64,000 bases of DNA from Methanomassiliicoccales archaeon (GCA_026394375.1 JAPKYJ010000013.1:2089-66088); one strand, 5' to 3'; counted from the first letter of the stretch, positions 1,556 through 64,000 are shown. Translations and numbers: made by a program. The notes: generated by a model not told the origin, from the sequence alone.

Positions 1556-2629
1556 ATGAAAGAAACGATAAAACCAGTGAATGCCAGGTCACGGACTGTG
1601 GCCATCATCGGAGGGGGCGTCGCCGGGCTCTCGGCGGCGGTGCAGTTGGCGGAGAAGGGGATCAGGCCAGTCATATTGGAGAGCGAGCCCGAGCTTGGTG
1701 GCAAGGTCAAGGCATACGGCTGCAAGGGCGTGCGGGAGTGCGTTCATTGCGACGTGTGCCTCAGTGTCAACTTGATTAAGGAAGTGAAACGCCTGGGCGT
1801 GGAGCGGTTCAAGGGCGCCAAGGTCCTTTCTCTGAGCGGCAGGCCGGGCAGATACCGCCTGCGCCTCAGCGTCGGTGGGTCCTCTTCCACAAGAACGCTC
1901 AGCGTCGGGACGATCATAGTCGCAACGGGTGCCGAGCCGTTCGATCCCTCGGTCGAGAAGCGCCTCTCCCACGGGCGGATCAAGGACGTCATCTCGGCCG
2001 TGGAGGCGGAGCACCAGATCCGTGCCTCGGGCAAGCTGCTCGTCCCTTCCACCGGCATGGCGCCAAAGAGCGTGGCCTTCGTGCAGTGCGTCGGCTCCCG
2101 GGACCTGAGCAAAGGGTCGGGGGCATGTTCCAAGGCCTGCTGCAAGTACTCGTGGAAGATGGCGCAACTGCTGAAGCGCATAGACCCGGAGACATCGATA
2201 CTCTACCTCTTCATGGACTGGCGTCCGGTGGATGCGCAGGACGACATCCGTTCTTGGGCGGCGGGGCAGAAGAACGTGAGGCTGATCCGCTCCCGGCCCT
2301 CCGAAGTTCTGCTCGGCGAAGATGGCAGGCCGGTAGTGAGATTCGCCACCGGCGACGATTCGATCATCGAGGAGGAGGCTGTGGACCTGGTCATCCTTTC
2401 CGTGGGAATGGTCCCTTCTGCAGGTTCGAAGGAGCTCAGCCATGCCCTGAGACTCGAGGAGGACGCCCAGGGCTTCATTCTCACCAGCGAGCTGGATAGG
2501 CATCAGACCTCAAGACCTGGTGTATACGCAGCCGGCAGCTGCACCGGGTCGAAGGACATCCGGGAGAGCGCCAAGGACGGAGAGAGGGCCGCTGGAGCGG
2601 CTGCGAGATCGCTGGAGGAGATGCAATGA
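1556..2629 (+). CDS. hdrA: HdrA-like FAD-dependent oxidoreductase, N-terminal part of a split HdrA
   Basis: Rossmann FAD motif VAIIGGGVAGLSAAVQLAEKG, cysteine cluster ECVHCDVC, and ...VQCVGSRD...CSKACC... as in heterodisulfide reductase A / thioredoxin-reductase-like domains. Its stop overlaps the next start (ATGA at 2626-2629). Confidence 0.75.
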   Translation: MKETIKPVNARSRTVAIIGGGVAGLSAAVQLAEKGIRPVILESEPELGGKVKAYGCKGVRECVHCDVCLSVNLIKEVKRLGVERFKGAKVLSLSGRPGRYRLRLSVGGSSSTRTLSVGTIIVATGAEPFDPSVEKRLSHGRIKDVISAVEAEHQIRASGKLLVPSTGMAPKSVAFVQCVGSRDLSKGSGACSKACCKYSWKMAQLLKRIDPETSILYLFMDWRPVDAQDDIRSWAAGQKNVRLIRSRPSEVLLGEDGRPVVRFATGDDSIIEEEAVDLVILSVGMVPSAGSKELSHALRLEEDAQGFILTSELDRHQTSRPGVYAAGSCTGSKDIRESAKDGERAAGAAARSLEEMQ

Positions 2630-4203
2630 GCGAGAAGCGTATCGGCGTCTTCATCTGCGAATCTGCGGGCGGAAGCGAGGGATCGCTGGACCTGCGCTCC
2701 CTGGGCAAGCACGTCTCATCCTTGCCAGAGGTCTCGTTCGTTCGCTTCATCGATCAGGTGTGCAAGGAGACTGGTCAGGCCCAGATGCTGCAGGCGTTGA
2801 ATAAGGACGAGGTCGATCGTTTCGTCGTCGCCGCTTGTTCGCCTCTGAGCAAGGAGCGAATGCTGATGCGGTTGGCGGCCGAGGCCGGACTGAACCCTTT
2901 CATGTTCACCATCGCGAACGTCCGCGAGCAGAGCGCCTTCGTTCATTCGAAAGCAGGGGCCGACCTGAAAGCAAAGAGGTTGCTGAGGATGGCCGTGGAG
3001 AAGTGCCGCCTGCTCGCACCAGCGCCTTACGATGTCAGGATCCCTGATAGCAGGACGGTGCTCGTCGTCGGGGACGGCCTGAGGGCGGCCTTGGCGGCGG
3101 AGGATCTGCGAGCCCTCGACCTCGAGGTCATGATACTGGTGGAAGAAGGCATGCTGCGATTGCCTCGCTTTCTCGATCCCACGCTAGCCGAGGCGTTGAA
3201 GCGCAGCGAGGAGGGTTCTCCGATCATATCCGGGCACTTGGCATCACTGGATGGGGTTCCAGGAGCATTCGATGTGCTCACAGAAGGAAAGACCTCCGGA
3301 GCGGTCAGATGCGGTGCGGTGATCATAGCGTTCGATCCTTTGCCCGCGAAGCTCGAAGAAGGTATCATGGGCCCGATGCATTTCGAGGAGCTCATGGCCG
3401 GCGGAGCGCGGCTGCCTCTTTCCCTTGTGATCGTGGTCGACGATTGGAAATCGGAGTTCCACTCACCTCAGGCCATGGAATGGGCCATGCGAACGGCGGT
3501 AGCGGTGCGAACAAGGTCGCCCGAGTCCTCGGTGCGCATCCTTTGTAGGGACATCTCCTCGAGGGGCGAGCTGGAATCGGAACAGCTTCGAGCGCAACGC
3601 CATGGAACAATCTTCATGAGAACGGAACGAGCGCCCACTGTCACCCCCGGAGAAAGAGCGATCGTCAGAACGGTCGACCCCATCGTCGGAGAGCTGGCCC
3701 TGGATGCGGACGCAGTGATTCTGGTTGGTTCAGATCTGAACGCGGGAAGCGCGAGCACCTGTTTCGTTCTTGGGTTGGCGATGCGTCCCGACGGCATGCC
3801 TCGAGAATCGAAGGTAAGGCTGCGCGCTGGGGAGAGTCTGCGGGCCGGGATCTACGTCATCGATCCATGGAGCGAGTGGAGCAGTGGGGACGTCCGATTG
3901 GATTGTGCGGCCGTTGCGGCCAGAGCGGCCGCCCTCCTGCTTTCTCCGGGGATCGAAGAGGGCGGTGCGGTGGCCCAGGTCGAGGCAGGCAAGTGCTCGG
4001 CCTGCCTGAGCTGCGTGCGCATCTGTCCCTATGGTGCACCATACGTCACGGACGAGGGCAAGGCAGAGGTCAGATACGAGCTGTGCCAGGGCTGCGGGAT
4101 GTGCGTGACCTCCTGCCCCGGCAAGGCCATCGACATGCATTGCTACTCCGACGCCCAGATAGCTGCGGAAGGGAAGGCGGCGCTCAAGGAGCCACGTCCA
4201 TGA
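2626..4203 (+). CDS. hdrA: HdrA-like protein, C-terminal part with a 2x[4Fe-4S] ferredoxin domain
   Basis: Contains IGVFICES...DRFVVAACSP (HdrA-type domain), a degenerate second Rossmann segment VLVVGDGLRAALAA, and C-terminal CSACLSCVRICP / CQGCGMCVTSCP ferredoxin motifs. It is translationally coupled on both sides. Confidence 0.75.
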   Translation: MSEKRIGVFICESAGGSEGSLDLRSLGKHVSSLPEVSFVRFIDQVCKETGQAQMLQALNKDEVDRFVVAACSPLSKERMLMRLAAEAGLNPFMFTIANVREQSAFVHSKAGADLKAKRLLRMAVEKCRLLAPAPYDVRIPDSRTVLVVGDGLRAALAAEDLRALDLEVMILVEEGMLRLPRFLDPTLAEALKRSEEGSPIISGHLASLDGVPGAFDVLTEGKTSGAVRCGAVIIAFDPLPAKLEEGIMGPMHFEELMAGGARLPLSLVIVVDDWKSEFHSPQAMEWAMRTAVAVRTRSPESSVRILCRDISSRGELESEQLRAQRHGTIFMRTERAPTVTPGERAIVRTVDPIVGELALDADAVILVGSDLNAGSASTCFVLGLAMRPDGMPRESKVRLRAGESLRAGIYVIDPWSEWSSGDVRLDCAAVAARAAALLLSPGIEEGGAVAQVEAGKCSACLSCVRICPYGAPYVTDEGKAEVRYELCQGCGMCVTSCPGKAIDMHCYSDAQIAAEGKAALKEPRP

Positions 4204-4601
4204 AGATCATCGGCTACGTCTGCTCACACGCCGGCTACGCAGCAGCGGACCTGGCCGGAGAAGAGCGACTGCAATATTCCCCGGACATAATTCTGATCCG
4301 ACTGCCATGTGCCGGTCGGATCGACGTCGTACATTTGCTCAAGGCGTTCCGCGAAGGGGCCGACATGCTCTTCGTGGCGGGATGCCTGGAAGGAAACTGC
4401 CACCATCACTATGGCAATCACGAAGCCAGGAAGCGCGTCGATCAGGCCAAGAGCATCCTGGATGCATTGGGCATGGATGGACGGAGGATAGAGATGTTCT
4501 ACCTTGCCTCCAACCAGGGCTGGAAGTTCAAGGAGATCGCGGATGAGATGATGAGAAGGGCGAGCGAGCTAGGGTCGAACCCACTGGAGGCGAAGGGATG
4601 A
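4200..4601 (+). CDS. mvhD: MvhD/FlpD-like [2Fe-2S] electron-transfer protein
   Basis: Internal ATG at 4200 within track ORF 3867..4601, overlapping the previous stop (ATGA). Sequence MKIIGYVCSHAGY...LPCAGRIDVVHLLKAF..GADMLFVAGCLEGNCHHHYGN is the typical MvhD pattern. Confidence 0.85.
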   Translation: MKIIGYVCSHAGYAAADLAGEERLQYSPDIILIRLPCAGRIDVVHLLKAFREGADMLFVAGCLEGNCHHHYGNHEARKRVDQAKSILDALGMDGRRIEMFYLASNQGWKFKEIADEMMRRASELGSNPLEAKG

Positions 4602-5293
4602 TAATCGGAGAACAGAAGCCGCTCCAGGAGATCTGCGCCATGCTCGAGGGACATCAGCGCATCCTAGTGGCAGGCTGTCGTTCCTGCGTGGCCATTTGCC
4701 TCGCGGGCGGAGAGAAGGAGGTGGGCATCTTGGCGGAGAGCTTGCGCCTGCACTCCGACCTCCGAGGAAGGAATTGGGAGGTGACCGAGTTCACCACGGA
4801 GAGGCAATGCGAGAAAGAGTGGGTGCGTGAGCTCTCCGACCTGGTGGCCAAGAGCGACGCGGTCGTCTCCATCGCTTGCGGGGTTGGGGCGCAAACCATC
4901 CAGGCGCTTTTCCCGGAAGTGAGGGTCCTTCCCGGGCTTAACACTTCGAACATGGGTGCGCCCGAAGAACCGGGCGTTTTCATGGAGAAATGCGGGGGCT
5001 GCGGTGACTGCGTTCTGCATCTGACCGGAGGGATATGTCCCATCGTCCGCTGCGCCAAGAGCCTGCTCAACGGTCCCTGCGGAGGGAGCCAGAACGGCAA
5101 GTGCGAGATCGGTCACGATACGCCCTGTGCCTGGGAGGAGATCTACCACTCGCTCGAGCGCCTTGATCGATTGGACCTGCTGGAGGAGCTGATACCTCCG
5201 AAGAACTGGATGCCCAGCCGTAGCGGCGGACCGAGGAGGATCATCAGGCCGGAGGCGGTCCTGACCAGGGAAGAGAAGGAGATGAGAGGATGA
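4598..5293 (+). CDS. metV: MetV, methylene-THF reductase-associated Cys-rich subunit
   Basis: CGGCGDCVLHLTGGICPIVRCAKSLLNGPCGGSQNGKCE resembles the MTHFR C-terminal-like/MetV family. It lies directly upstream of metF and is coupled to it by an ATGA overlap. Confidence 0.8.
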   Translation: MIIGEQKPLQEICAMLEGHQRILVAGCRSCVAICLAGGEKEVGILAESLRLHSDLRGRNWEVTEFTTERQCEKEWVRELSDLVAKSDAVVSIACGVGAQTIQALFPEVRVLPGLNTSNMGAPEEPGVFMEKCGGCGDCVLHLTGGICPIVRCAKSLLNGPCGGSQNGKCEIGHDTPCAWEEIYHSLERLDRLDLLEELIPPKNWMPSRSGGPRRIIRPEAVLTREEKEMRG

Positions 5294-6210
5294 AGGCGGG
5301 CAGCAACTTGGAGAAGGTGCTTTGCGATGGGAGGTTCGCCGTCACGGCGGAGATCGGGCCGCCCAAGTCCGCCAGCGCCGAGAGCGTCCGTCGACACGCG
5401 AAGGAGATGCGAGGTTGTGCGGACGCCTTCAATCTCACCGACAACCAGATCGCCATGGCCAGGATGTCGTCCATCGCCGCTGCGGTCGTTCTCATCGAGG
5501 AAGGCCTGGAACCGGTCATCCAGATGACCTGTCGGGACAGGAACCGGATCGCCATGCAATCCGATATCCTGGGGGCATCGGCGTTGGGCATTAAGAACGT
5601 GCTTTGCATCAGCGGCGACCATCAAACCTTCGGTAACCAGAAGGAAGCGAAGAACGTGTACGACGTCGACTCCATCCAGGAACTGATGATCCTGCGCAAG
5701 ATGAGGGACGAAGGCCGAGTGTGGAGCGACGAGGAACTGGAAGTAGCTCCAAGACTTTTCCTGGGCGCGGCGGCCAATCCTTTTGCCGATCCATTCGAGT
5801 TCCGGGTCGCCAGGCTGGCAAAGAAGGTGAGGGCGGGAGCGGATTTCGTGCAGACGCAGAGCATCTTCGACATGGAACGCTTCGAAAGGTGGATGGAGCT
5901 CGTTCGGGTCAGGGGGCTGCATGAGGATGTGCATATACTGGCGGGCATCCTGCCGCTGAAATCGCACAGGGTGGCGCTCTACATGAAGAACAAGGTGTCA
6001 GGCATGATCGTTCCCGATGCCATAGTCGAGCGCATGAAGGCGGCCAAGGACCCGAAGGAGGAAGGCATCCGCATCTGCGTAGAGCAGATCGAGCATCTGC
6101 GGAGCATCGAAGGAGTGCATGGCGTGCACATCATGGCGCCCTTGTGGGAAGAGAAGGTGCCAGAGATCGTCCGCAGAGCGAGATTGCGTCCAGATGCTCG
6201 AATCGAGTGA
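5290..6210 (+). CDS. metF: 5,10-methylenetetrahydrofolate reductase
   Basis: 306 aa. Motifs VTAEIGPPK, FNLTDNQ, QMTCRDRNR, ISGDH and FVQTQSIFD are characteristic of MetF-type MTHFR. Confidence 0.9.
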   Translation: MKAGSNLEKVLCDGRFAVTAEIGPPKSASAESVRRHAKEMRGCADAFNLTDNQIAMARMSSIAAAVVLIEEGLEPVIQMTCRDRNRIAMQSDILGASALGIKNVLCISGDHQTFGNQKEAKNVYDVDSIQELMILRKMRDEGRVWSDEELEVAPRLFLGAAANPFADPFEFRVARLAKKVRAGADFVQTQSIFDMERFERWMELVRVRGLHEDVHILAGILPLKSHRVALYMKNKVSGMIVPDAIVERMKAAKDPKEEGIRICVEQIEHLRSIEGVHGVHIMAPLWEEKVPEIVRRARLRPDARIE

Positions 6211-10221: not shown

Positions 10222-10998
10222 TCAAGCGCGCAGGAAATCGTCGCAATAGAGCTTCTGGTTCAGCAGCACTTGTCCGGCCTTGATGGTGCTCATGAGTTCC
10301 TGGTCCTCGGGGTCGCAGATGACGGCGCTCAGGCCTGCGCCCATCAGCATGGCCAGGTAGGTGCGGTTCACCAACGGCCGGTCCTTCGTTCCGTTGGAGA
10401 CGTTGCTCAATCCGACCACCGTTCGAGGGGCAGGTTCGTTCAAGCTCTGGAACATGCGGAGGGCCTCGATGACCTTCAGTCCCTGGTCCTGGGCCGCTTT
10501 CGTCGGCAGGACCAGCGGATCGAGGTATAATCGATCCGGCATGATCTCGTGCTCCATGGCGGTGGTGATCATGAGCATGGCCATCTCCGCGCGCGAGGCA
10601 GCGTCATTGGGGACGCCGCGCTCGTCCATGGTCAAGCAAATGATGTCCGCGTTGTGCTCGCGGGCCAAGGGAAACAGCTTCTCCATCTTCGCTTTCTCCG
10701 CCGTAGTGGAGTTCATGATGGCCCGGTTCCGACAGGCCTTAAGTCCTGCCGTCATGGTCTTGATGCCCGGCGTGTCGATGCTCAGAGGAACGTCGGTCAC
10801 TTCCTGCACGGTCCTTACGAGCCATTCCATCACCGCTGGCCCGTCCTCTCTGCCTGGACCGGTGTTGATGTCCAGTGCTTGCGCTCCCTTGGCGATCTGG
10901 TTCAGCGCATGCTCCTGGATCCATTTCGCGTCCCGCTGGTCGATGGCTTTGGAGACGGAAGAGAAAAGGCCATTGATCCTCTCGCTGATGACGTACAT
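10222..10998 (-). CDS. acsE: methyltetrahydrofolate:corrinoid/iron-sulfur protein methyltransferase (MeTr)
   Basis: From internal ATG 10998, MYVISERINGLFSSVSKAIDQRD...LDINTGP...SIDTPG...NSTTAEK...YLDPLVLP...GLSNVS...LLNQKLYCDDF is colinear with Moorella AcsE as I recall it. The 49-codon track extension up to 11145 has no homologous counterpart. Confidence 0.9.
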   Translation of the reverse strand: MYVISERINGLFSSVSKAIDQRDAKWIQEHALNQIAKGAQALDINTGPGREDGPAVMEWLVRTVQEVTDVPLSIDTPGIKTMTAGLKACRNRAIMNSTTAEKAKMEKLFPLAREHNADIICLTMDERGVPNDAASRAEMAMLMITTAMEHEIMPDRLYLDPLVLPTKAAQDQGLKVIEALRMFQSLNEPAPRTVVGLSNVSNGTKDRPLVNRTYLAMLMGAGLSAVICDPEDQELMSTIKAGQVLLNQKLYCDDFLRA

Positions 10999-51451: not shown

Positions 51452-51524
51452 GCTTACCCTTGGCGTTGAACGATTTGCTCGTACTTAAATGCTCTCCGGA
51501 GCTTCCTGGATGGGTAAGAAACGA

Positions 51525-54700: not shown

Positions 54701-55438
54701 TTATGACTTGACGGCTCTGATGATCGCTTCCAGCTTCCCGCCGAACTGGCCGTCCTCGACGACGGTGCCCGTGACGATGATGTCCGCTCCCGCCTTCTTC
54801 AGGGCCGCCGCCTGTTCCGGGCTTCTGATGCCCCCACCCACGATGACCGGTATCTTCAGCTTTGACTTGACAGCCGCCACCATCTCCGATGGGACTGGCT
54901 CTGGTGCTCCGCTGCCCGCTTCATAGTAGACCAGCTCCATGCCCATGAACTGCGCCGCCAGGCCATAGGCCACCGCGGCCTGCAGGTCGTTGCGCTTGAT
55001 GACGTCCGCCTCCCCCACCTCGCCGACCTTCATCCCTGGCTCGACGACCACATAGCCCATGGAGATGGTCTCCAGATCCAGTTTGGCGATGATAGGTGCT
55101 CCGGCCACTTGTTCCCCGATCACGTTCCGGCGGTTGCGGGAGTTGAGCATGCTCATGAAGTAGATGGCGTCGCTATATCGCGAGATGGCGTGGGCGCCCG
55201 AAGGGAAGTAGATCACTGGCACTTTGATGCGTTTCTTGATCGCCAGGACCGTCTGGTCCAGGTTCTCTTGCGTGACATCCGTGGAACCCCCGACCATGAT
55301 GGCGTCCGTGCCCGCCTTCTCCGCCACGGCCGCGATCTCCCCTGCTCTCTCATAGTCCTGCTTGGCCGGATCGATCAGGGTCATGTGCAGCGTATGGTGG
55401 GTTGCCAGTCTTTCCCGGATGTACGCCTTGACGTTCAT
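54701..55438 (-). CDS. geranylgeranylglyceryl phosphate synthase (GGGPS, PcrB family)
   Basis: Contains TLIDPAKQ, DAIMVGGS, YFPSG and PVIVGGGIRSPEQA. The ATG overlaps the stop of the upstream UbiA gene (ATGA at 55435-55438). Confidence 0.9.
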   Translation of the reverse strand: MNVKAYIRERLATHHTLHMTLIDPAKQDYERAGEIAAVAEKAGTDAIMVGGSTDVTQENLDQTVLAIKKRIKVPVIYFPSGAHAISRYSDAIYFMSMLNSRNRRNVIGEQVAGAPIIAKLDLETISMGYVVVEPGMKVGEVGEADVIKRNDLQAAVAYGLAAQFMGMELVYYEAGSGAPEPVPSEMVAAVKSKLKIPVIVGGGIRSPEQAAALKKAGADIIVTGTVVEDGQFGGKLEAIIRAVKS

Positions 55439-56250
55439 GTGATCCCTCCGATGAGGAACGAGACCATGGCGGCTAGCATACCGATCTTGGCCCAGGTCTG
55501 GCCCCTCTTCGGGTTCTGGAAATGAACTATGGATGAGTATATAAATATTGCATCTGCCACCAGGACCGTGGCCAGGTACCAGATGCCGAACACCCCGACT
55601 AGATAGGGTTCGGGGGACATCGCCACCGCGGCTAGGAATGCAGCGCTTCCCACCACGCCCGCCCGCTTCTTGCCCAATCGCTTGGGGAGGGTCGCTCGGT
55701 CATAGTCCCCCTCCATGTCCTGGATGTCTTTGACGATCTCCCGCCCCAGCGTGGCCAAGAAGGCCATGGCGGCGATGGCTACGGTCCTGTCCAGTCCTCC
55801 CACGATCGCACCGCCTAGCAGGAACAGGGCTCCGGTCAGCCAGGCAATGGACAGATTGCCGGCCAGGCCGCGCTTCTTGGTGGCGAGCTCGTACGCCAGC
55901 ACGATGACGATGGCGGAGACCACGATGGCGATGGAAACGAGATCCAGGAGCAAGGAGAGCGCGAGAGATACGACGAAGGCACCGGCCGAAAGGCGGAGCG
56001 CGGTGACCGGTCTCATGCGACCTAAGGGCAATGGGCGTTCGGGATGAGCCACCCGATCCACTTCTCTGTCCAGATAATCGTTGAGCGCGTTGCCGCCGGC
56101 CACGAAGGCGAAGACCACGCCGGAGGCAATGAGCACCTTCTCCCATTGGCTGGTCATGCCCGTGCCGGCGGCGATGAGTACCGCTAGGACCAGGCCGACC
56201 ACGCCCATAGCGCAATTGCCCAATCGGAATATCTGGGCGAACCGATTCAC
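55435..56250 (-). CDS. UbiA-family prenyltransferase, probable digeranylgeranylglyceryl phosphate synthase
   Basis: The Asp-rich motif is NALNDYLDREVDRVAHPERPLP. It has 8-9 TM segments and is coupled to the GGGPS gene. Confidence 0.8.
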   Translation of the reverse strand: MNRFAQIFRLGNCAMGVVGLVLAVLIAAGTGMTSQWEKVLIASGVVFAFVAGGNALNDYLDREVDRVAHPERPLPLGRMRPVTALRLSAGAFVVSLALSLLLDLVSIAIVVSAIVIVLAYELATKKRGLAGNLSIAWLTGALFLLGGAIVGGLDRTVAIAAMAFLATLGREIVKDIQDMEGDYDRATLPKRLGKKRAGVVGSAAFLAAVAMSPEPYLVGVFGIWYLATVLVADAIFIYSSIVHFQNPKRGQTWAKIGMLAAMVSFLIGGIT

Positions 56251-56314
56251 GGGCGCAAATTCGATTCCCGTGCTTTAGCTTTTGCCTGGAGAGTCGGTGG
56301 AAAACCGCTGAACG

Positions 56315-57811
56315 ATGACAGGTTCTAAGCCAAGGTTATATAGCACGCCCTTTGATAAGGGCGAAGGAGTTCACGTGGACCAAGCGGCTGAGATCGAGCT
56401 AGTCCGTTCCCTGGTGGCCAAGCACTTCGCCACCTACGACGTTAAGGTCAGCCTCGATGCGGTGGTGGTCCACATAACCCCTGACGTGTCAAGGTTGGAG
56501 AGAGACTTCGACGACCTGCGCAAGGAGATGGCCGCCAAAGGTTACATCCCCATTCTGGAGTACAAGGGCGGAGAATACTCCGTAGCGGCGGTGCGAAAGC
56601 CTCAGGCCAGGAAAGGACGCAATTGGATCAATCTCGCGCTTCTGGTCGTGACCATGCTCACGACGATCCTATCTGGGGCGTATCTGTGGGCCGGATACTC
56701 TTCCAGCACCGATCTGCTCACCGTGGACAACATCCTCTTTGGCACGGTCTTCTTCGCCATCCCTCTAATGACCATCCTAGGCGTGCATGAGCTTAGCCAC
56801 TACCTCATGTCCAAGCGCCACGGATTGGAAGCTTCCTTGCCTTACTTCATTCCCTCCGTACCACCTCTGGGGACGTTCGGGGCGTTCATCTCCATTCGCG
56901 AGCCCATGCCCAGCAAGAAGGCGCTGGTCGACATTGGTGTGGCTGGGCCCATCGGTGGATTGCTGGTCACTATACCCGTGGCGATCATCGGCCTGTGGCT
57001 CAACGCCCAAGGTGTGCCCAATAACAGCACTCCGCCCGGCGGCTCGATAGTGATTAACTTTCCGTTCTTCTTCAACCTGCTCGCCCTGCTCGTGCCCCAG
57101 CCAGAGGGGATTATGAACATGCATCCTTTGGCTTTCGCGGCCTGGGTAGGATTCTTCGTCACGGCCATCAACCTCCTGCCGGCCGGGCAGTTGGACGGGG
57201 GGCACGTGGCCCGCGGGCTGCTGGGTGACAGGTCCAAGTATCTCAGCTTGGTGACCGTGGGCGTTCTCTTTGCTCTGGGAGTGTTCTTCTACACTGGCTG
57301 GTTGCTGTTCGCTGCCCTTATCGTGTTCCTGGGCATGAAGCATCCCGCTCCGCTCAACGACGTGTCCCGACTCGACGTGAAACGGCTGACCGTGGGGGCC
57401 GTGGCCCTGGTGATCCTGGTAGGATCGTTCGTTGCCGTGCCTATGGAGGAGATACCTCTGGAACAGACGTTCGAGATGCACGTCGTGGGGTTGAACAACA
57501 CATCGGTCTCCGGAGGCCAGCTTGCCTTTTTCAATATGACCTTGAAGAACACCGGCAGCGTGAACATCTCCGTGAGGATGGACGTGAACGACGTCCCCTC
57601 CACTTTCAGTGCCACCCTCTATCCCACCAATTCCAGTTCAGCCAATGCCACCGACAGCCTCTCGGTCAAGATACCGTACAAAGGCACGGCGAACGTGACT
57701 CTCGAGGTGCAGGTGCATTCCTTGGCACTGGCAGGTAAGTACGTGCTGTCCGTCACAGCGGCAACGCAGGGACAGCGGACCACTCAGCGCTTCACCGTCC
57801 AGGTGATCTGA
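56315..57811 (+). CDS. site-2 protease (M50) family metalloprotease with a C-terminal Ig/CARDB-like domain
   Basis: The HExxH motif is HELSHYLMSKRHG, with a second motif NLLPAGQLDGGH. The C-terminus is beta-rich and Asn/Ser/Thr-rich. Confidence 0.8.
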   Translation: MTGSKPRLYSTPFDKGEGVHVDQAAEIELVRSLVAKHFATYDVKVSLDAVVVHITPDVSRLERDFDDLRKEMAAKGYIPILEYKGGEYSVAAVRKPQARKGRNWINLALLVVTMLTTILSGAYLWAGYSSSTDLLTVDNILFGTVFFAIPLMTILGVHELSHYLMSKRHGLEASLPYFIPSVPPLGTFGAFISIREPMPSKKALVDIGVAGPIGGLLVTIPVAIIGLWLNAQGVPNNSTPPGGSIVINFPFFFNLLALLVPQPEGIMNMHPLAFAAWVGFFVTAINLLPAGQLDGGHVARGLLGDRSKYLSLVTVGVLFALGVFFYTGWLLFAALIVFLGMKHPAPLNDVSRLDVKRLTVGAVALVILVGSFVAVPMEEIPLEQTFEMHVVGLNNTSVSGGQLAFFNMTLKNTGSVNISVRMDVNDVPSTFSATLYPTNSSSANATDSLSVKIPYKGTANVTLEVQVHSLALAGKYVLSVTAATQGQRTTQRFTVQVI

Positions 57812-58799
57812 ACAGACAGTAGTGCCGAGTGAGGGACCGGTGCACCCTCTGGGCGTGCTTCTGCTCCAGTCTCAGACCTGCAGCGTCCTGACAACTCCAG
57901 GGCAGGACGATCCCCCCACGCCCTCCCGGCCGCAGGACGTCGGCGATGGAAACCAGCGCGCGGTGGTGCAATTCTAGCATGGGTTCCTTCATGGTGGAGG
58001 CTGATCTCCCGTAAGGTGGGTCCGTGGCCACGGCATCCACCTTGCCGAACGTGCTCAGGACATCCCCCACGTCCACGATCTCCAGACGCTCCCACCGGGC
58101 CGCGAAATGGCGCATGTTCTGGGCACAGCCATCGATCATCTCCGCTGAGAGATCCGAACCGAGGACCTTCGCTCCCATCAACGCGGCTTCGATCAGGATG
58201 CCACCGGTGCCGCAGAAAGGGTCGAGCATGGTCTGCCCTTCGCGCACCTGGGTAAGATTGACCAAGGCCCTAGCGTAGCGAGGGTGGAGCGATATGGGCG
58301 AGAAGAATGGGCGACTTCGTACGTGCCTGGCCTCATACTGATCGCGGTCGATGTGGCCTTCCTCGATGAAGAAATGCAGACGGTCGGAGAGAAGCACACG
58401 CACCGGGACTTCGGCCGAGTCGAGGTCCACGTTCCTTCCTTTGGAGAGCGCCGCCCCTATCTGCTTCGTGAGATCTCGAGCCTGCTCTGGCGTGCTCGTA
58501 CCTTGGTGACGCTTCACCCGGACGCTCACGGATCCCTTTGGCAGTGGCAAACCATCGACGAACGGCTTGAGGTGCTCCCGGTCCACGGAGCCGAGGTAGC
58601 GGCCATACCGGTGGACGAGGGCCAACCTTCGGACGATGTTACCCCGTTCCTCATCCCCGAGCGAACAAGCCACGAAACCAGGGCCTTCCGCCAACAGCTC
58701 AGACCGTCCAGTCTCCGCCTCCAGGCATGAGATGACCTCCGCTCTCGGCAGCGAGGGGTGTTCGCCTGAAAGCTCGAACAGCGTCGCCTGGGGCCTCAT
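57792..58799 (-). CDS. trm11: THUMP-domain tRNA (guanine-N2)-methyltransferase (archaeal Trm11/Trm-G10-like)
   Basis: The SAM motif is LDPFCGTGGILIEAA and the catalytic motif is ATDPPYG. The 3' end overlaps the convergent M50 gene by 20 nt. Confidence 0.8.
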   Translation of the reverse strand: MRPQATLFELSGEHPSLPRAEVISCLEAETGRSELLAEGPGFVACSLGDEERGNIVRRLALVHRYGRYLGSVDREHLKPFVDGLPLPKGSVSVRVKRHQGTSTPEQARDLTKQIGAALSKGRNVDLDSAEVPVRVLLSDRLHFFIEEGHIDRDQYEARHVRSRPFFSPISLHPRYARALVNLTQVREGQTMLDPFCGTGGILIEAALMGAKVLGSDLSAEMIDGCAQNMRHFAARWERLEIVDVGDVLSTFGKVDAVATDPPYGRSASTMKEPMLELHHRALVSIADVLRPGGRGGIVLPWSCQDAAGLRLEQKHAQRVHRSLTRHYCLFRSPGR

Positions 58800-58831
58800 T
58801 CGCTTCCCCTAAGTTCGCGGAGCTATTAAGT

Positions 58832-59773
58832 TCAATCGCGAATGCCTTCCTCGGAAACGCTGAAGACCGCCTCGGCCTCGGGGAGGTTCGGAGAGTCGAC
58901 GAGCCGAGCGATGCGTTTCCCGCCCTTGCTCTTCCGCAGGTAAATCCTGAAGGTGGCCGCGTGCCCTACGATGTGTCCGCCTATTGGTCTGGTGGGATCC
59001 CCGAAGAACGCGTCCGGCTTGGCGGATACTTGATTGGTCACGGCCATGACGGTGTTGTTCAGGTCCCCGAAGCGCAGCAGATTGTGCATGTGCTTGTTGA
59101 GCAGCTGCTGCCTCTCGGCCAATGCGCCTCTTCCCATGTACTCCGCGCGGAAGTGCGCCGTCAGCGAATCGACGATCATGAGACGGATCGGTATGTCCTT
59201 GGCTATCTCCATGGCCTTATCCACCAGTAGCATCTGATGCGAGGAGTTGAACGCCCTCGCCACGTGTATCTTGCGCAGCGTTTCCGCGGGATCCAAGTCC
59301 ATCGCCGTCGCGATCTGCACGATCCTCTCCGGCCGGAAGGTGTTCTCGGTGTCGATGACGATGACCTCGCCCTCCAGCCCGCCCTTGTCGAACGGCATGG
59401 TGGCGTTGACGGCCATCTGGAAGCACAGCTGCGTCTTGCCGCTGCCGAATTCTCCATAGAACTCCACGATGGCTTGGGTCTCGAAGCCGCCGCCCATGAG
59501 CTCATCCAGTGCCTTGGAGCAGGAGGTGAGCTTGCGCATGTTGCGCCGCCTCTCCAGGATCACATCGCCGGGCTCGAACCCTCCCACGTCCGCTGCTTCC
59601 TTGGCAGCGGCGATTATCTTGGTGGCGGCCGCTTCCCCGATCTCGCACGCTTCCGCGAGGTTCTTGGGCGACTCGACCGCTATGGCCATCAAATCAGTGT
59701 AACCGGCGTCCCGCAGCCTCTCGGCCGTTGCAGGCCCAACTCCGGGCAACTCTTCGAGTTTCATCTCAGCCAT
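58832..59773 (-). CDS. radA: DNA repair and recombination protein RadA
   Basis: The HhH motif is [12 protein letters not shown], with Walker [10 protein letters not shown] and Walker B LMIVDS. Confidence 0.95.
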
Positions 59774-59984
59774 CGATGCACCTGCCTTTTACCTATCTTC
59801 AGCGCACTTATAAACATGCTAGAGGGTAGGACGAAAGTGCCCGTTCTCCGGGCCTCGAGGATCTATCACCTGGCGGGAGTATTAAATCGATTCGCTGCAG
59901 TCAGTCTCAACTTCTCCAGCAAGGCTCGTCGACGTCGGGATTGGTGAAAAAGGTTTAAATCCCGCTGCCGTTTAACGGGAGAGC

Positions 59985-60689
59985 ATGGCCAAGAAGAAGA
60001 GGAAGGAAGAGGTGGAGGCGGAGAAGTACGAGTTCAAGCCTCCAGATTTCGACGAGAAGTCCTTCCTCGTGAACGACATCAAAGGCACCAAGATGCTCAT
60101 GGTGGCAGCCCTGCTGGGCATCGTTCTGGGATCGGTAGCATACTTGTTGACCGGCGTCTCGGCCCTGATAGGAGTGGTCGTCCTCTTCGCCGGTGCGTTC
60201 CTGCTCAAGTATGTCCTGCAGATCTTGAGAATCAATACCGAGGGGGTGCAGATGAGAACCCTGGCCGGCAACATCGTTCTGCTGATACTGCTGGGGTTGG
60301 CCATATGGATCATGCTCCTGAATCCTCCCTTCTCCGACCACTTTGCACCAGAATTCAGAAGCAACACTCAGGACTTCCAGCACGCCGCCGAGCCGTGGGA
60401 GAAATACATCGACGCAGGCCACACTCCGATCTATTCGGGGGACGGCGTTCGCATCAATATTACGGTGAGGGACAACGGCCGCATCGCTCACGTCTATGTG
60501 GAGGTGCCAGAGGTCACCACTGGCCAGGTCGAGATGGATCCCAACCTGGTCCCAGGCTCGTACATCTACCAGAACACCTACACTGCGAGCGGTTCGACTG
60601 CCACGTATACATACACCATCACGGCTGTCGATGAGGCCGGCAACAGCGCCACGACGAACGGTGCTTTTGTCGTCAACCCCGTGGTCTAG
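59985..60689 (+). CDS. hypothetical membrane protein with a C-terminal beta-rich extracellular domain
   Basis: A Lys-rich N-terminus, three hydrophobic segments, and a C-terminal Thr/Tyr-rich Ig-like region. A TATA-like GGTTTAAATC lies about 28 nt upstream. Confidence 0.5.
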   Translation: MAKKKRKEEVEAEKYEFKPPDFDEKSFLVNDIKGTKMLMVAALLGIVLGSVAYLLTGVSALIGVVVLFAGAFLLKYVLQILRINTEGVQMRTLAGNIVLLILLGLAIWIMLLNPPFSDHFAPEFRSNTQDFQHAAEPWEKYIDAGHTPIYSGDGVRINITVRDNGRIAHVYVEVPEVTTGQVEMDPNLVPGSYIYQNTYTASGSTATYTYTITAVDEAGNSATTNGAFVVNPVV

Positions 60690-62027
60690 TCATCTCTCCC
60701 AAGGGAGGGTACGGTCCAGGTGCCGGGACAGTGTTCGCTTCATATCGGCCTTCAGCGAACCAGCGGTGTCCCGCACTTCCATTCCTGCGAGGTCCCTGAA
60801 ACTGCTGCCGAGGGCGGCCTTCATCGCCTCTCCCCGCACCAGCTCAGGGGCGCGCCGATACTTGCGCTCGACCAGCGCTACCCAGCGCCCGTTCTCGATG
60901 TAAGGTCCGACGACCGCCTTTCCAGACCATTTCTCCAAGAACCCGACAGCGTGCCCGATCCAGACCGGCGGACCGACATGCTTCATCACCCTTGGCAGCT
61001 CTTCCGCCATGAGCTCGAACACCAAATCCACCCGACCTTCCATGGGATGGGTGCTGGTGGCGACCACAGAGAACTCCCCCGCTTCTAGCGCCGCTTGCAG
61101 ACCCTCCACCGTCTTCTTCATCTGCGGGAAGAGGTCATCATCTATGAGCTTCGGTCGCTTGAGGCTCACCACCAGCAGACTGGTGCCCCTTTTGTCCATC
61201 TCTTTCTTGATCTTCGGCAGCGGCCAGGTCTTCGGCGCCCGGGGAAAGAAGAATCTGATGGACGGGCTGTCCAGGTACGCCTTTGCCGCGTGCTGGAAGC
61301 AGGCCATCGAGTCCATGGAGACGGCGGAAGCCACGTTCCGTGAGGAGTCCACTGGGTCGTAAAAGACCAAGGGTGTGTCAAACCGCTCACCTTTACCCTC
61401 CAGGTCCAGAACCTCTCCTTTTTTCCAGCTTCCCGCTGCCGCCAGAACGGAGCGGAAGTCTCCATACCTCAGGACGAGGAGCTCAACCAGATATCCTGAG
61501 AAGCCTTGCACCTTTGCCTCGGCACCGTACGCCCCGATGCCCTTCATGAACTGCTTGAGCAGGCGCACGTCCGCCTTCTGTTTCTCAGCCAGGTGCGATT
61601 TGATATAAGTGGTATGGAAAGGGGTACGATCGACAGCGGACTTGAGACCGACGGGGCTGGAGATGCGGAAACATGGGACCAGGTCGACCTCGTACCCAGA
61701 GTAGATGCCATGAACGTAGGGGTGCTCGGCGTAGCGCTCTTCTCCTCCCAGAACGCTCTTGCCGATGCCTAGGCCCACTATTTCCAGATCCTTGCGCGAG
61801 GTGCTCTCCGGGAAAAGGATGAACACATCGATGTCGGGCGTGGAGGTATAGGTGTCCTTCGCCACTGAACCCTGGAGGGTAGCCTCCAGAGGCAATCCGG
61901 TGTCGTTGATCGCTTCTAGCACGTGAGCGAGAAGGGTCTTGGCGGCCTTCTCCACCCGCTTTCGACGGGCAGGGGACGGAGACACCCTTCCCAATACCTC
62001 GTTCTCAATATCCATCGACCCGACCAT
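60690..62027 (-). CDS. cca: CCA-adding tRNA nucleotidyltransferase (archaeal class I)
   Basis: Contains LQGSVAKDTYTSTPDIDVFILF, AEHPYVHG and VDLVPC. Size is 445 aa. Confidence 0.9.
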   Translation of the reverse strand: MVGSMDIENEVLGRVSPSPARRKRVEKAAKTLLAHVLEAINDTGLPLEATLQGSVAKDTYTSTPDIDVFILFPESTSRKDLEIVGLGIGKSVLGGEERYAEHPYVHGIYSGYEVDLVPCFRISSPVGLKSAVDRTPFHTTYIKSHLAEKQKADVRLLKQFMKGIGAYGAEAKVQGFSGYLVELLVLRYGDFRSVLAAAGSWKKGEVLDLEGKGERFDTPLVFYDPVDSSRNVASAVSMDSMACFQHAAKAYLDSPSIRFFFPRAPKTWPLPKIKKEMDKRGTSLLVVSLKRPKLIDDDLFPQMKKTVEGLQAALEAGEFSVVATSTHPMEGRVDLVFELMAEELPRVMKHVGPPVWIGHAVGFLEKWSGKAVVGPYIENGRWVALVERKYRRAPELVRGEAMKAALGSSFRDLAGMEVRDTAGSLKADMKRTLSRHLDRTLPWER

Positions 62028-62837: not shown

Positions 62838-63635
62838 ATGATAGACATAAGTAGTGTAAACTATGAAGAAGTTTTCCGACGCTATGATATCGAGACGGAA
62901 GCCAAAGAGAAGCCTGAAGCGTTGGCCGCAAAGATCTTGGCATCCGTTTCCGACGCCAAGCTGAAGAAGGTCGCTGAGGACGTCGTCTTCATGAACTATA
63001 AGGGCGTGGAAGAAGACGTCAAGGCAGCGCTCGAGAAGACCAAGCCTGAGGACGTGATCGAGAAGGGGCTCGTCAAGGGAATGGATGTCGTCTCAGAATT
63101 ATATGGACGCGGCATCTACTACCTGCCCCAGGTCATGGTGGCTGCAAAGGCGATGGAGCTCGGCATAAAGACCGCTGAGAGTAAGATGAAGGGCGAGAGG
63201 GAGATGAAGGGCACTGTTGTCATGCATGTCGCCGAGGGTGACCCGCACGATATCGGCAAGAACATCGCGGCAGTCCTGCTCAGGTCCAACGGCTACACCG
63301 TGGTCGACATGGGCAGAGATGTGCCGGTTGACGATGTTGTCAAGATGGTCGAGGAAAAGAAGCCCCAGATGGTCACTGGAACAGCACTCATGACCACGAC
63401 CATGTCCGCGTTCCCGACGATCGCAGAAAGGCTCATCGAGAAGGGCATCGAAATCCCATTCGTCTGCGCTGGTGGCGCAGTGAACAGGGTGTTCGTCGAG
63501 TCCTACCCGCTGGGTGTGTACGCCAATAAGGCGGTCCAGGGACCAGTCCTGGCGAGCAAGGCCGTCGAAGGCTGGAACTACCAGAAGTTCAGACTGAAGT
63601 GGGATGAGCTTGTGGGTGCCCATGGAGCAAAGTAA
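62838..63635 (+). CDS. mtaC: methanol-type corrinoid protein (MtaC-like)
   Basis: The B12-binding motif GDPHDIGKNI (DxHxxG) is present, with TGTALMTTTM and CAGGAV. An N-terminal helical cap domain is present; size is 265 aa. Confidence 0.85.
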   Translation: MIDISSVNYEEVFRRYDIETEAKEKPEALAAKILASVSDAKLKKVAEDVVFMNYKGVEEDVKAALEKTKPEDVIEKGLVKGMDVVSELYGRGIYYLPQVMVAAKAMELGIKTAESKMKGEREMKGTVVMHVAEGDPHDIGKNIAAVLLRSNGYTVVDMGRDVPVDDVVKMVEEKKPQMVTGTALMTTTMSAFPTIAERLIEKGIEIPFVCAGGAVNRVFVESYPLGVYANKAVQGPVLASKAVEGWNYQKFRLKWDELVGAHGAK

Positions 63636-63647
63636 GAGGTGATAAAA

Positions 63648-64000
63648 ATGGCATCAATAAAGAGATTCACCAGGATGGAATACAAGAGCGCTGACGAACT
63701 GGTCTTCGGTGAGGCGAAATACCCGGTGACATACGGTCTCGGCCAGAAGGCTGGTGCTGGGCATGTCATCCCCGAAATCAACTTCGCCCCCAGGCCCGGC
63801 GCTAGCAAGAACCCCGAGACCCTGACGAGGGAGTACGTCGACTACATCGCCAAGGACATACTCGACCGCGCTATCACCTTGGGATTCCCACGAGTGCAGC
63901 TGGAGAACGAGCACATATGGCAGATGGTCAACGACCCGCAAAAATTCGAGAAGCCGGTGGTCGCCGGTCAGAAGGAGATCATGGAGAAGTACCACGATGA
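63648..64000 (+). CDS. mtaB: methanol:corrinoid methyltransferase (MtaB), 5'-partial view truncated by the window end
   Basis: Not in the ORF track because it has no stop in the window. Manual translation gives MASIKRFTRMEYKSADELVFGEAKYPVTYGLGQKAGAGHVIPEINFAPRPGASKNPETLTREY...LENEHIWQMVNDP...QKEIMEKYHD, colinear with the Methanosarcina MtaB N-terminus as I recall it. AGGTGA lies 6 nt upstream of the ATG. Confidence 0.85.
   Translation, partial: MASIKRFTRMEYKSADELVFGEAKYPVTYGLGQKAGAGHVIPEINFAPRPGASKNPETLTREYVDYIAKDILDRAITLGFPRVQLENEHIWQMVNDPQKFEKPVVAGQKEIMEKYHD

What the first reader, a model, noticed from the sequence alone, without database searches (positions are those of the whole stretch)
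1556..64000. System-level: methanol methyltransferase, folate-type methyl branch and bacterial CODH/ACS co-reside in one archaeal 64-kb segment
Seen: mtaC-mtaB, an MT2-like enzyme, AcsE, MetF/MetV with HdrA/MvhD, CFeSP (AcsC/AcsD), RACo, two CooC, CooT, the fused CODH::ACS, and a THF-dependent PurH. These sit alongside unmistakably archaeal genes (GGGPS, DGGGPS, RadA, class-I CCA enzyme). No mcr, mtr, H4MPT-pathway or cdh-type genes are visible in this window. Inference: methyl groups from methanol could enter a tetrahydrofolate/CFeSP pool and be carbonylated to acetyl-CoA. That would serve either assimilation in a methyl-reducing methanogen or non-methanogenic methylotrophic acetogenesis. Which of these applies depends on genes outside the window.
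Basis: inference. Interest (0 to 1): 0.6.

Follow-up and report, generated by a model that had tools for sequence, protein, structure and literature searches.

The report
Methanogen with folate-type acetyl-CoA pathway
This stretch of a methane-producing archaeon (order Methanomassiliicoccales) really does carry methanol-handling genes beside a complete bacterial-style acetyl-CoA pathway. The combination is genuine and conserved, but it was already described for a close relative in 2018 and is common in this order.

Summary
The contig is not chimeric. The "bacterial-type" segments also have the same tetranucleotide signature as the archaeal housekeeping genes.

The genome (99.8% complete) has mcrBGA, a true mtaA, a stand-alone mtrAH pair, a [NiFe] hydrogenase large subunit beside HdrA-like genes, and Fpo-like and Ehr-like complexes. 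It also has Fhs, FolD, SHMT, and both AMP- and ADP-forming acetyl-CoA synthetases. I found no Mch, molybdopterin enzyme (so no Fdh or Fwd) or MttB. It is therefore an H2-dependent, methanol-reducing methanogen.

This inventory matches the "MALP" genome of Speth & Orphan (2018) wherever I tested it. In a 151-genome sample of the order, ACS is in 96 genomes and McrA in 142.

Three points add to what I found in the literature:
- MtrAH is not co-distributed with ACS.
- The in-window "MT2-like" gene belongs to a DVU_1553-1557-like cluster, not the methanol pathway.
- The CODH/ACS is bacterial in type, but an AU test did not show it nested within Bacteria.

The direction of flux is untested.

The parts
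1556..4203 (+). Two tandem HdrA-like flavo/Fe-S proteins (357 aa and 525 aa)
   Evidence: Pfam Pyr_redox_2 and Fer4. NCBIfam HdrA2 partial matches of 202 and 213 bits, well below cut-off.
4200..4601 (+). MvhD-like [2Fe-2S] protein
   Evidence: PF02662 FlpD, 135 bits. VhuD model, 140 bits. ATGA start/stop overlap at 4200.
4598..6210 (+). MetV (DUF5981) and MetF, methylene-THF reductase
   Evidence: PF12225, 122 bits, and PF02219, 138 bits. 68-83% identical and syntenic in relatives G062 and G035.
10222..11145 (-). AcsE, methyl-THF:CFeSP methyltransferase
   Evidence: PF00809. NF005719 scores 290 bits, above its 259 cut-off.
11316..12896 (+). PurH (AICARFT/IMPCHase), a formyl-THF consumer
   Evidence: PF01808, 369 bits.
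15206..17071 (+). RACo, reductive activator of CFeSP
   Evidence: PF14574, PF17651, PF17650 and Fer2.
17068..18189 (+). Conserved MetE-like protein inside the acs accessory operon (function unproven)
   Evidence: Only a weak PRK00957 methionine-synthase match. 53-74% identical and syntenic in five relatives.
18186..18938 (+). CooC nickel-insertion ATPase 1
   Evidence: CbiA, ParA and NifH-type P-loop families. The GQGCYCY motif is visible in the translation.
19389..21740 (-). CFeSP large (AcsC) and small (AcsD) subunits
   Evidence: PF04060 + PF03599. AcsC matches Moorella 4djd_C at 421 bits over its full length.
21686..25762 (-). Fused CODH::ACS (AcsA-AcsB), 1358 aa
   Evidence: Pfam domains. 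PDB: residues 645-1357 match C. hydrogenoformans and Moorella ACS at 800-810 bits; residues 11-632 match CODH-II at 643 bits. C-cluster and A-cluster ligands are conserved.
34925..35923 (-). CooC paralogue 2 (34925-35731) and CooT (35732-35923)
   Evidence: CbiA and related families. PF10133 CooT scores 41.8 bits, above its 27 cut-off. Translation.
48031..53877 (.). DVU_1553-1557-like cluster: URO-D-family 'MT2-like' protein, DVU_1557-family redox protein, radical-SAM TrsS, DUF169 and DVU_1553-family CoA ligase. Probably not part of the methanol route.
   Evidence: PF01208, 94 bits. MtaA models score only 38-61 bits against cut-offs of 235-400. TrsS scores 549 against 490. The two partner models match only below cut-off: DVU_1557 at 37.5 bits against 60, and DVU_1553 at 261 against 300.
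54701..62027 (-). Archaeal housekeeping block: GGGPS, DGGGPS, (M50 protease on the + strand), methyltransferase, RadA and class-I CCA enzyme
   Evidence: PF01884, PF01040, PF08423, PF09249 and PF21133. Collinear with the acs cluster in G024.
62838..64000 (+). mtaC and the 5' part of mtaB, methanol:corrinoid methyltransferase
   Evidence: B12-binding domains and PF12176. Full-length MtaB (472 aa) scores 718.7 bits on NF040651, just under its 720 cut-off. It is the only MtaB in the genome.

Best explanation
The window is a genuine chromosomal segment of an H2-dependent, methanol-reducing methanogen of the order Methanomassiliicoccales. It closely resembles the published 'MALP / Lake Pavin clade' genome.

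Energy comes from methanol passing through MtaBC and MtaA to methyl-CoM, which MCR reduces to CH4. H2 would supply the electrons through the [NiFe] hydrogenase and HdrA-like genes on contig C5 and the Fpo-like complex.

The folate-type pathway in and around the window is Fhs, FolD, MetFV-HdrA-MvhD, AcsE, CFeSP and the fused CODH::ACS, with RACo, two CooC and CooT for maturation. It most likely serves anabolism. A methyl group derived from methanol reaches CH3-THF. In this genome the probable route is the stand-alone MtrAH pair acting as a CH3-THF:CoM methyltransferase. AcsE passes the methyl to CFeSP. There it is condensed with CO, which the CODH half makes from CO2, and with CoA to give acetyl-CoA.

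The same CH3-THF pool can be oxidised to methylene- and formyl-THF for thymidylate and purines; PurH and Fhs are adjacent. With no formate dehydrogenase, the methyl branch cannot start from CO2.

Shown: gene content, intact catalytic ligands, conservation and co-occurrence with mcr. Inferred: the direction of flux and the route by which methyl enters the folate pool.
For: - Gene identities.
- Catalytic ligands: C-cluster ligands H261, C295, C333, C446, C476 and C526 (CODH-II numbering) and A-cluster ligands C1135, C1138, C1147, C1157 and C1224-G-C1226 are conserved.
- Methanogenesis genes: mcrA, mcrB and mcrG; MtaA on C7; adjacent MtrA and MtrH with a RamA-like activase. MtrH falls below the H4MPT-type cut-off and also hits the THF methyltransferase MtgA.
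- Folate branch outside the window: Fhs lies 26 bp upstream of the window; FolD; SHMT.
- Not found: Mch, any molybdopterin enzyme and MttB, in a genome 99.84% complete.
- Energy genes: [NiFe] hydrogenase large subunit, Fpo-like and Ehr-like complexes, and many CCG proteins.
- Order-wide: ACS in 96 of 151 genomes and McrA in 142 of 151. Only 5 ACS-positive genomes, all fragmented MAGs, lack a McrA hit.
- Not chimeric: synteny with a closed genome and a 1.78-Mb contig; tetranucleotide correlation 0.945-0.978 for the acs segments against 0.957 for the archaeal block.
- Literature: the same gene set and scheme were published for MALP (PMC6147122).
Against:
- The genome also encodes AMP-forming and ADP-forming acetyl-CoA synthetases, so acetate could supply acetyl-CoA instead.
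- The cultured M. luminyensis draws about 84% of its cell carbon from acetate (PMC5688252). I did not establish whether that strain carries the ACS.
- MtrAH is not co-distributed with ACS across the order. Genus g4 has ACS in 8/8 genomes but MtrH in 1/8; g13 has 4/4 against 0/4; g23 has 7/8 against 0/8. MtrAH therefore cannot be the general methyl link.
- Every step of the pathway is reversible.
Confidence: 0.5

Rival explanations
1. The pathway runs mainly in reverse. Acetate is activated by the AMP- or ADP-forming acetyl-CoA synthetase, and CODH::ACS cleaves acetyl-CoA. This supplies CH3-THF and C1 units for methionine, thymidylate and purines, as in Dehalococcoides mccartyi. Alternatively the methyl group passes through MtrAH to CoM for aceticlastic methanogenesis, which is scheme B of Speth & Orphan.
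For: - AMP-ACS (C31:126681-128549) and Acd (C31:149425) lie on the same contig.
- A MetE-like gene is conserved inside the acs operon.
- PurH and Fhs are adjacent.
- M. luminyensis assimilates mostly acetate.
- Several genomes of genus g23 gave only an AcsB-range match, with no CODH-range match listed. That is a Dehalococcoides-like pattern.
- Speth & Orphan proposed this scheme.
Against: - Here the CODH is fused to the ACS with intact C-cluster ligands. That fits tight CO channelling in either direction and does not favour cleavage.
- SHMT already offers a source of C1 units.
- Methanol-derived methyl is a cheaper C1 source.
- Speth & Orphan themselves judged the energetics of aceticlastic growth doubtful, because there are no membrane Mtr subunits and no HdrE.
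Confidence: 0.25
2. [quoted passage not shown] This would run alongside methanogenesis or replace it.
For: - All the enzymes are encoded, including Acd.
- The reaction is exergonic, at about -77 kJ/mol by my own calculation from standard formation energies.
- Non-methanogenic sister lineages (UBA10834) carry the same fused CODH::ACS.
Against: - mcr is retained in almost all ACS-bearing genomes.
- Methanol + H2 to CH4 yields more energy, about -112 kJ/mol.
- Pta/Ack and Rnf were not tested, and there is no Fdh.
- I found no report of acetate production by this order in the papers I searched.
Confidence: 0.1
3. Methanol is disproportionated. Some methyl groups are oxidised through CH3-THF to formate (MetFV-HdrA-MvhD, FolD, Fhs) to supply electrons for methyl-CoM reduction without H2. 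This is scheme C of Speth & Orphan.
For: - The THF branch is complete, with Fhs next to the window.
- MtrAH is present.
- No Fdh was found, so oxidation would stop at formate.
- The scheme was proposed.
Against: - It does not explain the CODH::ACS, CFeSP and AcsE genes.
- The methyl transfer from CoM to THF would be uphill and would have no ion-gradient coupling.
- The authors themselves flagged an unknown link between NAD(P)H and ferredoxin.
- MtrH is missing from many ACS- and MetF-bearing genera.
Confidence: 0.08
4. The co-residence is an assembly or binning artefact that joins bacterial and archaeal DNA.
For: The only support is that the Acs-type genes resemble bacterial enzymes.
Against: - AcsE-PurH is kept in G035 and G062; CODH::ACS-DUF1028 in G035 and G093; PdxT-GGGPS in G024.
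- The fused gene lies in a closed 2.55-Mb genome and on a 1.78-Mb contig.
- GC content and tetranucleotide signature cannot be told apart from the rest of the genome.
- 96 of 151 genomes of the order carry ACS.
Confidence: 0.01

Closest known systems
MALP ('Lake Pavin' clade Methanomassiliicoccales; equivalent to UBA248, related to UBA472), Speth & Orphan 2018, PeerJ (PMC6147122)
   Same: The inventories match wherever I tested. Both have mtaABC, mcrABG, Hdr-type genes with a [NiFe] hydrogenase, an Fpo-like complex, CCG-domain (HdrD-type) proteins and an Ehr-like complex. Both have mtrA and mtrH. Both lack MttB and Fdh. Both have a complete C1-THF pathway, AMP-forming acetyl-CoA synthetase and ACS/CODH (compared).
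   Different: I did not establish whether this is the same species. I did not search for the other Mtr subunits or the pyl genes, which MALP lacks. That paper does not mention the CODH::ACS fusion, the MetFV-HdrA-MvhD module, the Acs (bacterial) type of the enzyme or the order-wide distribution. Its MtrAH-link idea does not generalise, because ACS and MtrH are decoupled in many genera.
Bacterial acetogen Acs system (Moorella thermoacetica, Carboxydothermus hydrogenoformans AcsABCDE + RACo + CooC)
   Same: AcsB has its N-terminal domain and matches at 800-810 bits over the full length. AcsA is CooS-type. AcsC and AcsD match at 421 bits. AcsE is a separate gene. RACo and CooC are present, as are MetF and MetV with HdrA and MvhD.
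   Different: AcsA and AcsB are one polypeptide joined by a connector of about 12 residues. No Fdh was found. No HdrB or HdrC lies next to metFV. The host is an mcr-bearing archaeon. None of the 64 bacterial loci sampled had the N-terminal CODH fusion.
Archaeal ACDS (CdhABCDE) of Methanosarcina and Methanothrix
   Same: The overall chemistry is the same. The CdhC core is homologous: 9c0s_E matches at 361 bits over residues 948-1351 only.
   Different: No CdhA- or CdhB-type subunits are present. The pterin methyltransferase is a separate AcsE rather than a function of CdhD/E. The carrier is inferred to be THF, not H4MPT, because Mch was not found.
Non-methanogenic Thermoplasmata sister orders (UBA10834 / Ca. 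Gimiplasmatales; Zinke et al. 2021)
   Same: They carry the same fused CODH::ACS clade: L038, L039 and L042 are 66-67% identical and branch at the base of one starred clade. H4F Wood-Ljungdahl genes are reported for them.
   Different: Those lineages lack mcr.

Membership tests
Bacterial-type (Acs) CODH/ACS, as opposed to archaeal Cdh/ACDS | AcsB of about 700 aa with the N-terminal domain that archaeal CdhC lacks | tested here: met
   PF18537 + PF03598 + PF19436. The alignment to 7zkj_B and 1oao_C covers residues 645-1357. Archaeal 9c0s_E covers only 948-1351.
Bacterial-type (Acs) CODH/ACS, as opposed to archaeal Cdh/ACDS | CooS/AcsA-type CODH with complete B-, C- and D-cluster ligands | tested here: met
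   646 bits to CODH-II. H261, C295, C333, C446, C476, C526 and the N-terminal Cys motifs are conserved.
Bacterial-type (Acs) CODH/ACS, as opposed to archaeal Cdh/ACDS | Separate methyl-THF:CFeSP methyltransferase AcsE, plus AcsC and AcsD | tested here: met
   NF005719 scores 290 against a cut-off of 259. AcsC matches 4djd_C at 421 bits.
Bacterial-type (Acs) CODH/ACS, as opposed to archaeal Cdh/ACDS | AcsA and AcsB as separate subunits (alpha2beta2) | tested here: not met
   A single 1358-aa ORF with no stop. The fusion is shared by many Thermoplasmatota genomes.
Bacterial-type (Acs) CODH/ACS, as opposed to archaeal Cdh/ACDS | Phylogenetic nesting inside Bacteria (bacterial origin by transfer) | tested here: inconclusive
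   The quick tree places the archaeal clade as sister to a Bacillota clade (SH-aLRT 92). The AU test does not reject bacterial monophyly (p = 0.734), and the constrained tree has a log-likelihood 17.45 higher.
H2-dependent methyl-reducing methanogen (Methanomassiliicoccales type) | mcrABG present | tested here: met
H2-dependent methyl-reducing methanogen (Methanomassiliicoccales type) | Methanol methyltransferase system MtaB, MtaC and MtaA | tested here: met
   MtaB and MtaC in the window. MtaA on C7 scores 348 bits against a cut-off of 244.
H2-dependent methyl-reducing methanogen (Methanomassiliicoccales type) | No H4MPT methyl branch and no Fwd | tested here: met
   No Mch. No molybdopterin enzyme. 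Ftr, Mtd and Mer were not searched individually.
H2-dependent methyl-reducing methanogen (Methanomassiliicoccales type) | Mvh/Hdr plus Fpo-like/HdrD | tested here: met
   [NiFe] hydrogenase large subunit beside HdrA-like genes on C5. Three antiporter-type subunits and a 49-kDa-like subunit on C9. Many CCG proteins. Subunit-level assignment was not done.
Acetogen (Wood-Ljungdahl pathway as energy metabolism) | Formate dehydrogenase to start the methyl branch from CO2 | tested here: not met
   No PF04879 or PF00384 match in a genome 99.84% complete.
Moorella-type MetFV-HdrABC-MvhD methylene-THF reductase | HdrB and HdrC encoded with MetFV, HdrA and MvhD | tested here: not met
   No CCG-domain ORF was found among the window ORFs scanned. 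All CCG hits in G000 lie on other contigs.
MtaA / MT2 methylcobamide:CoM methyltransferase (for the window gene at 48031-49149) | Score above the curated MtaA/CmuA family cut-offs | tested here: not met
   61 against 244, 54 against 235 and 38 against 400 bits. The neighbours best match DVU_1557-family and DVU_1553-family proteins (below cut-off), and TrsS scores above its cut-off.

The most novel reading that the evidence does not exclude
The folate-type pathway with its fused CODH::ACS may be the older, vertically inherited core of this Thermoplasmatota lineage. It is shared with the mcr-less sister orders. Methanogenesis would have been grafted onto it later. [quoted passage not shown] That would make them facultative acetogenic methanogens that need no formate dehydrogenase.
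Probability: 0.1. Interest if true: 0.75.

Novelty: already known. Interest (0 to 1): 0.33.

Why it matters
Papers I read describe Methanomassiliicoccales as lacking the Wood-Ljungdahl pathway, and acetate is assumed to be their carbon source. About two thirds of the sampled species of the order encode an intact folate-type acetyl-CoA synthase together with mcr. If that enzyme works, many free-living members could build biomass from methanol and CO2. They might also divert methyl carbon away from methane. Either would change carbon budgets and isotope interpretations for methylotrophic methanogenesis in wetlands and sediments. The idea itself was published in 2018. What this report adds is scope, the exclusion of an artefact, and limits on the proposed MtrAH link.

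Tried and rejected
Synteny and composition were used instead.
- Adam et al. 2018 (PNAS), on CODH/ACS evolution: not held in the library. Its conclusions are not used as evidence.
- Naming the nearest ACS clusters with the listing of cluster members gave almost no organism names.
- I tried to identify the closed relative G062 as a cultured strain. Its protein cluster holds only MAG and metagenome records. No link to M. luminyensis is claimed.
- 'Nested in Bacteria, sister to Bacillota' from the quick tree is not upheld. The AU test does not reject bacterial monophyly. Three of the presumed CdhC outgroup rows were truncated bacterial-type sequences and were removed.
- HPPK as a marker of folate synthesis was uninformative. 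It is also missing from the archaeal controls Haloferax volcanii, Methanocaldococcus jannaschii and Methanosarcina acetivorans.
- The in-window URO-D gene as the methanol-to-THF or methanol-to-CoM link is rejected on family scores and gene neighbourhood.

Full report
**Observation.** The window is G000:C31:2089-66088, part of a 194.5-kb contig. The genome has 31 contigs and 1.73 Mb, and is rated 99.84% complete and 1.34% contaminated. GC content is 0.57-0.62 throughout, apart from two short dips.

- Two tandem HdrA-like ORFs, then MvhD, MetV and MetF (1556-6210).
- AcsE (10222-11145, minus strand; above NCBIfam's curated cut-off).
- PurH, RACo and CooC.
- AcsC and AcsD.
- A single 1358-aa CODH::ACS ORF (21686-25762, minus strand).
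- A second CooC abutted by a 63-aa CooT (35732-35923).
- A URO-D-family gene (48031).
- GGGPS, DGGGPS, RadA and the class-I CCA enzyme.
- mtaC and mtaB at the window's end. MtaB continues to 472 aa beyond it.

The fused protein keeps all C-cluster ligands, judged against C. hydrogenoformans CODH-II. It also keeps the A-cluster ligands C1135, C1138, C1147, C1157 and C1224-G-C1226. About 12 residues connect the two halves.

I therefore fetched 40-80 kb around the fused gene from five other genomes of the order and compared them with the window's proteins.
- In G062, a closed single-contig 2.55-Mb genome of the same family, window genes from 2 to 38036 are collinear.
- In G024, from another family, the gene lies on a 1.78-Mb contig. 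There the acs cluster is followed by the same URO-D, TrsS, DUF169, CoA-ligase, PdxT, GGGPS, DGGGPS, M50, RadA and CCA series as window 48031-62027.
- The same-genus genomes G035 and G093 keep the MFS-AcsE-PurH and CODH::ACS-DUF1028 junctions.

Tetranucleotide correlation with the rest of the genome is 0.945-0.978 for the acs and metFV segments and 0.957 for the archaeal housekeeping block. Background 5-10-kb chunks average 0.92-0.95. The misassembly reading is refuted, and the genes are compositionally fully at home.

Present:
- mcrB, mcrG and mcrA (C22:10160-14363).
- A bona fide MtaA (C7:2105-3139; 348 bits against a cut-off of 244).
- Adjacent MtrA and MtrH next to a RamA-like activase (C22).
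- A [NiFe] hydrogenase large subunit beside HdrA-like genes (C5).
- An Fpo-like complex (C9) and a second complex-I-like cluster (C24), with many CCG-domain proteins.
- Fhs, 26 bp upstream of the window, FolD and SHMT.
- AMP-forming and ADP-forming acetyl-CoA synthetases on the same contig.

Not found: Mch, any molybdopterin oxidoreductase, so no Fdh or Fwd, and MttB.

The closest fused proteins that carry names come from Methanomassiliicoccales and Methanomassiliicoccaceae MAGs. The organism is therefore an H2-dependent, methanol-reducing methanogen, not a non-methanogenic acetogen.

**Comparison with the literature.** This inventory matches, wherever I tested it, the one published for 'MALP', a 'Lake Pavin clade' Methanomassiliicoccales genome (Speth & Orphan 2018, PMC6147122). 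I did not search for the other Mtr subunits or the pyl genes. That genome has mtaABC, mcrABG, Mvh/Hdr, Fpo-like plus HdrD, an Ehr complex and mtrAH only. It lacks pyl, methylamine methyltransferases and Fdh. It has a complete C1-THF pathway, acetyl-CoA synthetase and ACS/CODH. The authors proposed MtrAH as a CH3-THF:CoM methyltransferase. They discussed H2 + methanol methanogenesis, possible aceticlastic growth, and methanol disproportionation to formate.

Xie et al. 2024 (PMC10804542) also note an H4F branch 'from formate to acetyl-CoA' in the order. Sister orders without mcr are reported to carry H4F Wood-Ljungdahl genes. The system-level idea is thus already in print. Some papers nevertheless still describe Methanomassiliicoccales as lacking the Wood-Ljungdahl pathway.

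**How general is it?** I searched an evenly drawn sample of 151 genomes of the order.
- The CdhC (ACS) domain is present in 96 genomes, spanning 26 of 34 genera. Among high-quality genomes it is in 71 of 119.
- McrA is present in 142 genomes and in all 34 genera.
- Only five ACS-positive genomes lack a McrA hit, and all five are fragmented MAGs.
- The full-length single-ORF fusion occurs in the window's genus and in several other genera and families. Other genera carry a solo AcsB.
- The largest family, f7, mostly lacks ACS (20 of 64).

MtrH is found in 63 of 151 genomes and does not track ACS. Genus g4 has ACS in 8/8 and MtrH in 1/8. Genus g13 has 4/4 against 0/4, g23 7/8 against 0/8, and g24 7/8 against 0/8. 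Conversely, g12 has ACS in 0/5 and MtrH in 5/5. MtrAH may be the methyl bridge in this genome, but it cannot be the general one.

**Bacterial type versus bacterial origin.** The type is clear.
- The ACS half aligns end to end with C. hydrogenoformans and Moorella ACS at 800-810 bits. Archaeal CdhC matches only the core, at 361 bits.
- The CODH half is CooS-type.
- AcsC matches the Moorella CFeSP at 421 bits.
- AcsE is a separate gene.

The origin is not settled. A quick IQ-TREE of 94-97 AcsB sequences included 80 named loci from a genome-contig scan. It makes all 27 archaeal AcsB-type sequences one starred clade. That clade includes UBA10834 and other Thermoplasmata with fused genes at its base. 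Internal branching roughly follows family codes. The free tree places this clade as sister to a Bacillota group (Sporomusa, Neomoorella, Desulfosporosinus), with SH-aLRT support of 92.

However, an AU test does not reject a tree in which all 64 bacterial sequences are monophyletic (p-AU 0.734). That constrained tree actually has a higher likelihood, by 17.45 log units. Sampling was also limited to the 80 best hits, and the CdhC root branches are long. I conclude that the pathway has been in this Thermoplasmatota lineage for a long time. Transfer from Bacteria remains unproven here. None of the 64 bacterial loci had the N-terminal CODH fusion.

**A correction to the gene list.** The in-window 'MT2-like' protein (48031-49149) scores far below the MtaA family cut-offs. 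It is 80-81% identical between families. Its neighbours are a DVU_1557-family redox protein, the radical-SAM protein TrsS (549 bits against a cut-off of 490), DUF169 and a DVU_1553-family CoA ligase; the two DVU-family matches fall below their curated cut-offs. It belongs to that conserved cluster of unknown function and is unlikely to be part of the methanol route.

**Mechanism and rivals.**
- Best reading, about 0.5: anabolic synthesis of acetyl-CoA from a methanol-derived methyl group and CO2. The same CH3-THF pool also feeds C1 biosynthesis.
- Main rival, about 0.25: the reverse, acetyl-CoA cleavage for C1 units or methane. This is supported by the two acetate-activating enzymes, the conserved MetE-like gene in the acs operon and acetate assimilation in M. 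luminyensis (PMC5688252).
- Facultative methanol carbonylation to acetate, about 0.1.
- Methanol disproportionation to formate, about 0.08.
- Chimerism, about 0.01.

Gene content cannot fix the direction of flux. Labelling and expression data are needed.

**Verdict.** The finding is real and conserved but already known. This report adds the exclusion of an artefact, the order-wide counts, the decoupling of MtrAH from ACS, the reassignment of the MT2-like gene, and a cautionary result on 'bacterial origin'.

Noticed in passing
Locus from G035:C53:21485-24895 (same genus); proteins P0002 and P0006: The orthologous CODH::ACS in a same-genus genome is 1894-1896 aa. It carries LAGLIDADG (PF14528) and intein-splicing (PF14890) domains, so an intein sits inside the ACS half.
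   Followed up: no
window 38093-41630: Downstream of tRNA-Leu(TAA) (38093-38180) lies a low-GC stretch (0.53) with an atypical tetranucleotide signature (r = 0.74). Its small ORFs have no family and no counterpart in any of five relatives. It is probably a recently acquired island at the tRNA.
   Followed up: partly
window 48031-53877: A conserved cluster resembling Desulfovibrio DVU_1553-1557: a URO-D-family protein, a DVU_1557-family redox protein, the radical-SAM protein TrsS (related to tetraether synthase Tes, 398 bits), DUF169 and a DVU_1553-family CoA ligase. It lies a few kb from GGGPS and DGGGPS. Its function is unknown.
   Followed up: partly
window 26950-31336: A transcarboxylase-like set lies directly next to CODH::ACS: a 12S-type carboxyltransferase, a 5S-type HMGL/PYC_OADA protein, a biotin carrier and a biotin ligase. 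It is conserved there in family f1 (G062, G035, G093) but not in family f5.
   Followed up: no
window 36684-38036: A 450-aa protein with no Pfam or NCBIfam family is 73-88% identical across two families. That is more conserved than the ACS itself. It always sits beside the CooT-CooC2 pair.
   Followed up: no
window 17068-18189: A MetE-like (URO-D superfamily) gene is translationally coupled between RACo and CooC. It is conserved in all five acs clusters examined, including genomes without MtrH. It is a candidate methyl-CFeSP:thiol methyltransferase.
   Followed up: partly
G000:C31:67862-70242 (just beyond the window's end): Downstream of mtaCB lie a 218-aa mini CFeSP-like protein (Fe-S motif plus the CdhD C-terminal part) and a RamA-like reductive activase. 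Two more RamA-like genes exist, one of them next to mtrAH.
   Followed up: partly
Genus g23 genomes (e.g. G042, G110, G122) and genus g2 genomes: Several g23 genomes gave a single match covering only the AcsB range, with no CODH-range match listed. That is a Dehalococcoides-like 'ACS without CODH' pattern. Genus g2 genomes have an AcsB of about 985 aa with an unexplained N-terminal extension of about 290 aa, plus a separate CooS that is 41% identical.
   Followed up: no
window 2-610: A DUF3786 protein (140 bits) lies between Fhs and the metFV module. It is syntenic in G062 and G035.
   Followed up: no
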